From assembly GCF_009914755.1 (NCBI RefSeq), contig NC_060933.1: 64,000 nucleotides of DNA, one strand, 5' to 3'. The translations under genes were made by a program, and so were the position numbers. This stretch comes from the human T2T-CHM13v2.0 reference genome, Homo sapiens. Position 1 is the stretch's first letter; each line of letters starts with the position of its first letter. Below are positions 39,112 through 41,174 of the stretch, piece after piece. The notes beneath the pieces are model-generated. The model did no database searches. It was not told where the DNA came from and was given only the letters and a program-made list of their open reading frames with translations.

Positions 39112-39122
39112 TCAATATCCTT
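39112..39122 (+). repeat. SVA target-site duplication, left copy (TCAATATCCTT)
   Basis: Identical 11-mer at 41164-41174; L1-endonuclease-like CCTT/AT nick site. Confidence 0.92.
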
Positions 39123-41022
39123 TTTTTTTTTTTTTTTTTTTTTTTTTAAATTTATTTTTTTATTGATAATTCTTGGGTGTTTCTCACAGAGGGGGATTTG
39201 GCAGGGTCATGGGACAATAGTGGAGGGAAGGTCAGCAGATAAACAAGTGAACAAAGGTCTCTGGTTTTCCTAGGCAGAGGACCCTGCGGCCTTCCGCAGT
39301 GTTTGTGTCCCTGGGTACTTGAGATTAGGGAGTGGTGATGACTCTTAAGGAGCATGCTGCCTTCAAGCATCTGTTTAACAAAGCACATCTTGCACCGCCC
39401 TTAATCCATTTAACCCTGAGTGGACACAGCACATGTTTCAGAGAGCACTGGGTTGGGGGTAAGGTCACAGATCAACAGGATCCCAAGGCAGAAGACTTTT
39501 TCTTAGTGCAGAACAAAATGAAAAGTCTCCCATGTCTACTTCTTTCTACACAGACACGGCAACCATCCGATTTCTCAATCTTTTCCCCACCTTTCCCGCC
39601 TTTCTATTCCACAAAGCCGCCATTGTCATCCTGGCCCGTTCTCAATGAGCTGTTGGGCACACCTCCCAGACGGGGTGGTGGCCGGGCAGAGGGGCTCCTC
39701 ACTTCCCAGTAGGGGCGGCCGGGCAGAGGCGCCCCTCACCTCCCGGACGGGGCGGCTGGCCGGGCAGGGGGGCTGACCCCCCCCACCTCCCTCCCGGACG
39801 GGGCGGCTGGCCGGGCGGGGGGCTGACCCCCCCACCTCCCTCCCGGATGGGGCGGCTGGCCGGGTGGGGTGCCGACCCCCCCACCTCCCTCCCGGACGGG
39901 GCGGCTGGCCAGGCGGGGGGCCGACCCCCCCACCTCCCTCCCGGACGGGGCGGCTGGCCGGGCGGGGGGCCGACCCCCCCACCTCCCTCCCGGATGGGGC
40001 GGCTGGCCGGGCAGAGGGGCTCCTCACTTCCCAGTAGGGGCGGCCGGGCAGAGGCGCCCCTCACCTCCCGGACGGGGCGGCTGGCCGGGCGGGGGGCTGA
40101 CCCCCCCACCTCCCTCCCGGACGGGGTGGCTGGCCGGGCTGAGGGGCTCCTCACTTCCCAGTAGGGGCGGCCGGGCAGAGGCGCCCCTCACCTCCCGGAC
40201 GGGGCGGCTGGCCGGGTGGGGGGGCTGACCCCCCCATCTCCCTCCCGGATGGCATGGCTGGCCGGGCGGGGGGGCTGACCCCCCACCTCCCTCCCGGATG
40301 GGGTGGCTGCCGGGCGGAGACGCTCCTCACTTCCCAGATGGGGTGGCTGCCGGGCGGAGAGGCTCCTCACTTCTCAGACGGGGCGGTTGCCAGGCAGAGG
40401 GTCTCCTCACTTCTCAGATGGGGCGGCCGGGCAGAGACGCTCCTCACCTCCCAGACGGGGTCTCGGCCGGGCAGAGGCGCTCCTCACGTCCCAGAGGGGG
40501 CGGCGGGGCAGAGGCGCTCCCCACATCTCAGACGATGGGCGGCCGGGCAGAGACGCTCCTCACTTCCTAGATGGGATGGCGGCCGGGAAGAGGCGCTCCT
40601 CACTTCCTAGATGGGATGGCGGCCGGGCGGAGACGCTCCTCACTTTCCAGACTGGGCAGCCAGGCAGAGGGGCTCCTCACATCCCAGACGATGGGCGGCC
40701 AGGCAGAGACACTCCTCACTTCCCAGACGGGGTGGCGGCCGGGCAGAGGCTGCAATCTCGGCACTTTGGGAGGCCAAGGCAGGCGGCTGGGAGGTGTAGG
40801 TTGTAGCGAGCCGAGATCACGCCACTGCACTCCAGCCTGGGCACCATTGAGCACTGAGTGAACGAGACTCCGTCTGCAATCCCGGCACCTCGGGAGGCCA
40901 AGGCTGGCGGATCACTCGCGGTTAGGGGCTGGAGACCGCCCGGCCAACACAGCGAAACCCCGTCTCCACCAAAACCAGTCAGGCGTGGCGGCGCGTGCCT
41001 GCAATCGCAGGCACTCGGCAGG

Positions 41023-41150
41023 CTTCCCTGAACCCGCGAGCTGGAAGCCGAGACCAGCTGGTCGCTGCCGGGCCCGCTAGTAGCCCACGGAGAAGCCGCC
41101 CACAGCCGGACACCAGAGCCTTGAGGGCCGCCATCTTCAAAAACCTACCC
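41023..41150 (-). pseudogene. MRPS18A: Retrotransposed copy of MRPS18A exon 1 (short 5'UTR plus 112 coding nt) fused to the SVA
   Basis: ATG at 41134 gives [37 protein letters not shown], which I recognise as the MRPS18A N-terminus. It ends GAAG| after 112 nt and joins CCTGCCGAGTGCC of the SVA Alu-like domain. Confidence 0.9.
41127..41138 (-). promoter_or_regulatory. TISU / YY1 motif GAAGATGGCGGC carried in the MRPS18A fragment
   Basis: Exact match to the TISU consensus SAASATGGCGGC and to the YY1 core AAGATGGCGGC. Confidence 0.75.
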
Positions 41151-41163
41151 TCGTAATTTTTTC

Positions 41164-41174
41164 TCAATATCCTT
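41164..41174 (+). repeat. SVA target-site duplication, right copy (TCAATATCCTT)
   Basis: Identical to 39112-39122. Confidence 0.92.

What the first reader, a model, noticed from the sequence alone, without database searches (positions are those of the whole stretch)
39112..41174. Young, probably polymorphic SVA_F insertion in B4GALT1 intron 2
Seen: a perfect 11-bp TSD, an intact homopolymeric tail, a CpG-rich VNTR and SVA_F diagnostics (a human-specific subfamily). Intron 2 here is 16,625 bp. From memory the GRCh38 intron is ~14.6 kb, shorter by about the size of this element, which suggests it is absent from the reference. I also recall a polymorphic SVA in B4GALT1 intron 2 being linked to lower B4GALT1 expression and to IgG-galactosylation GWAS signals (unverified). 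Established: SVA VNTRs recruit ZNF91/TRIM28-type silencing. The internal structure, including the MRPS18A part, would be invisible to short-read MEI calls.
Basis: partly seen in the sequence, partly recalled or inferred. Interest (0 to 1): 0.7.

Follow-up and report, generated by a model that had tools for sequence, protein, structure and literature searches.

The report
Known polymorphic SVA insertion in B4GALT1
This is an already published 2-kb jumping-gene (SVA) insertion, carried by only some people, inside the sugar-transfer gene B4GALT1; it has the first exon of another gene joined to its front, is associated with lower B4GALT1 expression, and likely acts by bringing dense DNA methylation into an intronic enhancer, which no experiment found here has tested.

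Summary
Real, and already in print. The window holds a 2,052-bp SVA insertion in B4GALT1 intron 2, in the gene's own orientation, with an exact 11-bp duplication (16 bp with one mismatch, ending at a TTTT/AA site), a pure tail and a CpG-dense VNTR. It is SVA_Chr9_273 of Kirby 2025 (non-reference SVA_F with MRPS18A exon 1) and, by position, SVA-401 of Wang 2017 (eQTL P 4.5e-20; r 0.82 with an IgG-glycosylation SNP in Europeans). A 2026 preprint reports it hypermethylated and colocalised with urate and gout. The leader is 129 bp identical to chromosome 6 and ends at that exon's splice donor. One point departs from print: Kirby says it uses the SVA_F1 splice site, but it joins 236 nt upstream. 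The F1 acceptor and the poly(A) signals therefore remain, in sense to B4GALT1, so exon trapping is an untested rival to enhancer silencing. No donor SVA lies in MRPS18A in this genome.

The parts
39112..39122 (.). Target-site duplication, copy at the element's 3' end (to 39127 with one mismatch)
39123..39147 (-). Poly(A) tail, pure; 25 nt beyond the 11-bp duplication (27 with its last two bases)
39148..39655 (-). SINE-R (upper limit set by eye), with AATAAA at 39164-39159 and 39156-39151
   Evidence: 98.6-99.2% identical to the 19 nearest fetched copies; signals
39656..40748 (-). VNTR, 76% G+C, 88 CpG, about 1.1 kb
40749..41022 (-). [quoted passage not shown]
   Evidence: 98-99% identical to the 39 other copies scored; junction context
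40786..40809 (-). Retained downstream acceptor (AG at 40788-40787, first exon base 40786): the site at which MAST2 joins in SVA_F1
41023..41151 (-). MRPS18A exon 1 copy, 129 bp, ending at that exon's splice donor; ATG at 41134
   Evidence: named
40979..41134 (-). Short chimeric reading frame, 51 aa: 37 aa of MRPS18A, then 14 aa across the junction into the SVA; no evidence of translation
41152..41163 (-). 12 nt of unknown origin at the 5' junction; no match to the MRPS18A upstream sequence
41164..41179 (.). Target-site duplication, copy at the element's 5' end (11 bp exact to 41174); TTTT/AA at 41176-41181

Best explanation
It is an SVA_F retrotransposon insertion with MRPS18A exon 1 joined to its front at that exon's splice donor, present in some human haplotypes, and it likely lowers B4GALT1 expression by placing a methylated, CpG-dense 2-kb block inside an intron-2 enhancer. 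Origin: an MRPS18A transcript was spliced from exon 1 into the upstream AG of an SVA Alu-like domain (the junction is shown, the splicing is inferred); the donor SVA probably sat in MRPS18A on a rare or lost haplotype (inferred); L1 proteins copied the RNA into a TTTT/AA site (duplication, tail and site are shown, the enzyme follows from established SVA biology). Effect: carriers have lower B4GALT1 RNA in B-cell lines and more methylation around the site (published associations); that the element causes this, and that lower enzyme then shifts IgG galactosylation or urate, is inferred.
For: Anatomy. Splice junction: the chr6 match ends at AAG|GTGAGT, and in 19 of 19 other SVAs the same SVA base follows a pyrimidine tract and CAG. 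Identity with published element: (GRCh38 33130550 maps to window 41163 counted from the gene's high end). eQTL slope -8.28, P 4.47e-20; enhancer intervals span the site. Hypermethylated element, raised flanking methylation, lower expression, urate/gout colocalisation. CpG rises from 3-8 to 35-39 per 500 bp. ZNF91 lays H3K9me3 and DNA methylation on polymorphic SVAs.
Against: All functional evidence seen is association; no deletion of this element was found in searches, and the preprint's main text has no occurrence of CRISPR. A linked SNP could be causal (r 0.82, not 1). None of the RefSeq enhancers in the hub's table overlaps the site. In neural cells ZNF91 heterochromatin lessens, not creates, an SVA's effect on its host gene. 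No donor SVA is present in chr6:43,466,001-43,518,030 of this genome.
Confidence: 0.55

Rival explanations
1. Exon trapping and early polyadenylation: the element lies in sense to B4GALT1 and keeps the SVA_F1 acceptor (40786) and its poly(A) signals, so part of the transcripts would splice from exon 2 into the SVA and end there, lowering full-length mRNA. Spliced at 40786 the frame gives 48 SVA-coded residues and a stop.
For: Orientation and retained sites. The same AG made the 73 F1 junctions counted in this genome. Precedent: a sense SVA_F in ASIP diverts about 14-16% of splicing and ends transcripts early. The hub's table already lists an alternative exon in this intron, 29183-36675, which begins after a strong acceptor.
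Against: The upstream acceptor lost its pyrimidine tract in the fusion (0.50 pyrimidine); the retained one scores 0.70 against 0.75-0.95 for five true B4GALT1 acceptors (crude measure, no splice predictor run). The 2026 preprint mapped long RNA reads of 202 B-cell lines to personal assemblies and does not name B4GALT1 among its isoform examples (section read; its table S3 not seen).
Confidence: 0.18
2. The SVA is a passenger: a linked SNP on the same haplotype drives the expression and trait signals.
For: LD with rs10758189 is incomplete (r 0.82 EUR, -0.63 AFR); no perturbation found.
Against: Haplotype-linked methylation gain around the element and colocalisation reported; a 2-kb insert with over 120 CpG inside annotated enhancer intervals is a stronger candidate than a single base (inference).
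Confidence: 0.17
3. Plain physical disruption or slowed elongation: the insert splits the enhancer, or its G-rich VNTR (7 G-quadruplex motifs on the transcript strand) hinders RNA polymerase, without need of methylation.
For: The site lies inside both enhancer intervals seen (2 of 18 rows); motif count.
Against: Motif counts are not evidence of folding; methylation spreading is reported.
Confidence: 0.1

Closest known systems
SVA_Chr9_273 (Kirby et al. 2025, PMC12593883) = SVA-401 (Wang et al. 2017, PMC5539088)
   Same: Same site, subfamily, host intron and MRPS18A leader; the first 400 letters shown in the table read the same as the window by eye. Equating it with SVA-401 rests on position (33130564 hg19 against 33130550 GRCh38, no lift-over run) and intron.
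   Different: Listed length 2054, tail 31, duplication 17 against 2052, 25-27 and 11 (16) here. The paper's statement that it uses the SVA_F1 splice site is contradicted by its own table and by this genome: it joins 236 nt upstream.
SVA_F1 (MAST2 exon 1-SVA) and chimpanzee pt_SVA_D6 (STK40 exon 1-SVA)
   Same: [quoted passage not shown]
   Different: Different gene and different acceptor; one copy in this genome against 73 F1 junctions; it carries only 129 bp from about the transcription start, without the upstream promoter sequence.
ASIP intronic SVA_F (Kamitaki et al. 2024, PMC11319198)
   Same: SVA_F in an intron, in the host gene's orientation, with usable acceptor and poly(A) site.
   Different: [quoted passage not shown] I did not establish which acceptor ASIP uses.

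Membership tests
SVA retrotransposon | Alu-like, VNTR, SINE-R, poly(A) in order | tested here: met
SVA retrotransposon | 5' CCCTCT hexamers (full-length form) | tested here: not met
   0 hexamers in 600 nt upstream of the junction against 1-56 in 19 other copies; replaced by the MRPS18A exon, so it is a 5'-substituted SVA, not a full-length one
L1-mediated insertion | Target-site duplication, tail, T-rich nick site | tested here: met
SVA_F subfamily | Diagnostic letters against the subfamily consensus | tested here: inconclusive
   No consensus library at hand; F-type letters at two sites by eye against labelled rows; published label F
SVA_F1 | MAST2 exon 1 leader | tested here: not met
   Leader matches chr6 MRPS18A exon and its chr3 processed copy only
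SVA_F1 | Junction at the downstream Alu-like acceptor (position 385) | tested here: not met
   F1 joins at the base equal to window 40786 (rows 278, 280, 281; L041; 385 nt from the first hexamer in 2 of 4 full-length copies measured); this element joins at 41022
Spliced 5'-transduction (exon-trapped) SVA | Foreign exon ends at its splice donor and meets an SVA AG | tested here: met
Spliced 5'-transduction (exon-trapped) SVA | Source SVA downstream of the exon at the donor locus | tested here: not met
   None in 52 kb of chr6 in this genome; none in GRCh38 per Kirby; other haplotypes not testable
Polymorphic non-reference insertion | Absent from some haplotypes | not testable with these tools
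   Published; 12 of 40 alleles in a 20-person table

The most novel reading that the evidence does not exclude
The B4GALT1 eQTL is in good part a splicing and termination effect, not an enhancer effect: because the MRPS18A fusion used the upstream acceptor (not the SVA_F1 site, as printed), the element keeps the F1 acceptor and its poly(A) signal in sense to the gene and traps exon 2, making truncated transcripts that GRCh38-based mapping cannot see. That would give a common IgG-glycosylation and gout locus a mechanism open to splice-blocking.
Probability: 0.18. Interest if true: 0.55.

Novelty: already known. Interest (0 to 1): 0.27.

Why it matters
It is a common structural variant at a locus tied to antibody glycosylation, urate and gout, and this assembly gives its full sequence, so the causal test is easy to design. 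The element, its MRPS18A leader, the eQTL and the methylation are published. What this check adds is small: the splice site is not the SVA_F1 site, so it does not support recurrent use of that site, shows a second usable acceptor, and leaves an intact acceptor facing the host gene.

Tried and rejected
Template switch or plain 5' truncation as the origin of the leader: rejected, since the junction sits exactly on a donor and an acceptor; a 2-nt AG overlap alone could be chance, both ends together hardly. The chr3 processed copy as source: rejected, 87% against 100%. A new subfamily: rejected, one copy in the genome. A source SVA in or below MRPS18A: only Alu-level and poly(A) matches in chr6:43,466,001-43,518,030; an F1 junction at chr6:43,410,263 on the same strand cannot be the source, as F1 lacks the upstream acceptor; the stretch between was not read. 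Origin of the 12 extra bases: best matches 8-10 nt of A-rich sequence in the window and in four chr6 loci, uninformative. Parent lineage: a one-base-deletion marker is shared with 2 other copies (chr6:159.49 Mb, chr9:137.53 Mb), which were not read; the nearest SINE-R copies differ at 4 of 507 sites. First guess for the F1 junction (40763) was not supported: the 20 matches showed no shared foreign leader in their listed letters and their 12 loci were not examined for it; the pattern was swamped by Alus (4,988 matches). One search translated the wrong frame; corrected. Hancks 2009 and Damert 2009 were not held, so their splice-site positions are not used.

Full report
Observation. The element lies on the minus strand, as does B4GALT1, in intron 2 (29177-45801, 16,625 bp). 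[quoted passage not shown] The duplication is 11 bp exact, or 16 bp with one mismatch inside the tail; the longer reading ends on TTTT/AA, the usual L1 nick motif (motif recalled; sequence). The insert is 2,052 bp, leaving 14,573 bp of intron. CpG observed/expected is 0.55-0.75 in leader, Alu-like part and VNTR against 0.16 in the flanks. Nearest SINE-R copies are 98.6-99.2% identical (19 copies), as expected of a young element.

The leader. A genome search with the 5' 144 bases gave 3 matches: the element, chr6:43516402-43516530 (100%) and a chr3 copy (87%). The chr6 match ends at AAG|GTGAGT; the chr3 copy runs on without the intron, as a processed pseudogene does. In 19 of 19 other SVAs fetched, the first SVA base of this element follows a pyrimidine tract and CAG. 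So the junction joins a donor to an acceptor. No SVA lies in 52 kb of chr6 covering the gene and 34 kb below it.

What is in print. Kirby 2025 (PMC12593883; abstract, sections 6 and 10, passages, supplement rows and the Fig. S2 and S8 legends read) lists it as SVA_Chr9_273, GRCh38 chr9:33130550, non-reference SVA_F in B4GALT1 with MRPS18A exon 1, and proposes a polymorphic source in MRPS18A intron 1. That coordinate maps to window 41163 counted from the gene's high end and to 39104 from the low end, and the gene is 2,059 bp longer here than in their GRCh38 span. Wang 2017 (PMC5539088; passages and supplement rows) reports SVA-401 in an intron-2 enhancer, eQTL slope -8.28, P 4.47e-20 in European B-cell lines, r 0.82 (EUR) and -0.63 (AFR) with rs10758189, whose GWAS P is 2e-6. 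A 2026 preprint (PMC13648404; passages and section 6; supplements not seen, and they may hold isoform or fine-mapping data on this element) reports hypermethylation, raised flanking methylation, lower expression and colocalisation with urate and gout. A 20-person study tabulates it on 12 of 40 alleles (PMC10224989, passage). PMC10380656 only cites Wang (passage); PMC12047246 names B4GALT1 in another context (passages).

A discrepancy. Kirby writes that the MRPS18A exon joins at the same splice site that gave SVA_F1. Three pattern searches for copies whose letters just upstream of this element's junction differ from the usual ones gave 12 distinct loci: 10 ordinary SVAs with local variants, this element, and one odd fragment; none was F1, against 618 copies with the usual CAG. 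The census needs an exact 21-mer and would miss a foreign junction that matches at all three tested positions. Kirby's own F1 rows 278, 280 and 281 join further down; that junction occurs 73 times in this genome, and in the fetched F1 copy L041 it corresponds to window 40786. In 2 of 4 full-length copies measured that site is 385 nt from the first hexamer, Kirby's number, and the MRPS18A site is 237 nt before it in all 4; here the distance is 236. Both junctions read AG/CC, which may explain the slip. [quoted passage not shown] Searches for MRPS18A with SVA found no other relevant paper, so I saw no correction in print; subscription journals were not searched.

Mechanism. Best: a methylated CpG-dense block in an enhancer lowers expression (0.55), resting on published association, the enhancer intervals that span the site (2 of 18 rows seen) and the CpG jump. 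Against a simple ZNF91 story, Horvath 2024 (PMC11479940; abstract and passages) finds that ZNF91 heterochromatin limits an SVA's effect in neural cells. Rival: exon trapping (0.18). The element is in sense and keeps the F1 acceptor and poly(A) signals; a sense SVA_F in ASIP diverts 14-16% of splicing (PMC11319198; passages). Against it, the retained acceptor is weaker by a crude pyrimidine count than five true acceptors of the gene, and the preprint's isoform section does not name B4GALT1. Other rivals: linked SNP (0.17), physical disruption or G-quadruplexes (0.10). Four searches found no deletion experiment.

Verdict. Observation confirmed, interpretation supported, already known. The additions are the corrected splice site, the longer duplication with a canonical nick site, the absence of a source in this genome, and a testable splicing rival. 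Interest 0.27.

Noticed in passing
L052:1508-1653 (G000:C1, about 185,814,059): An isolated 146-bp piece of the SVA Alu-like domain, 98% like this element, starts at exactly the same upstream acceptor base after a foreign AG and stops at another AG, with no VNTR, tail or duplication. Could be a captured spliced piece or a repair insertion.
   Followed up: partly
window 29183-36675: The annotated alternative B4GALT1 exon begins after a long pyrimidine tract and TAG, 2.4 kb past the SVA in the direction of transcription, and holds 12 poly(A)-signal hexamers: it looks like an alternative last exon, so intron 2 already has a competing exit that the SVA might shift.
   Followed up: partly
window 41152-41163: Twelve bases between duplication and MRPS18A exon have no source found; they are also in the published allele, so they are not an assembly error. 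Their last three bases plus the next two equal five bases lying 7 nt upstream on chr6, possibly chance.
   Followed up: partly
G000:C6:43,410,263 (-): An SVA_F1 junction lies 106 kb downstream of MRPS18A exon 1 on the same strand; not the source, since F1 lacks the acceptor used.
   Followed up: no
L049 and L050: Two SVAs (chr1:218.78 Mb, chr8:87.82 Mb) have the upstream acceptor replaced by a short local repeat of the following bases.
   Followed up: no
L003:715-1635 (G000:C3, about 48.284 Mb): Processed copy of MRPS18A, 87-96% identical to the chr6 exons.
   Followed up: partly
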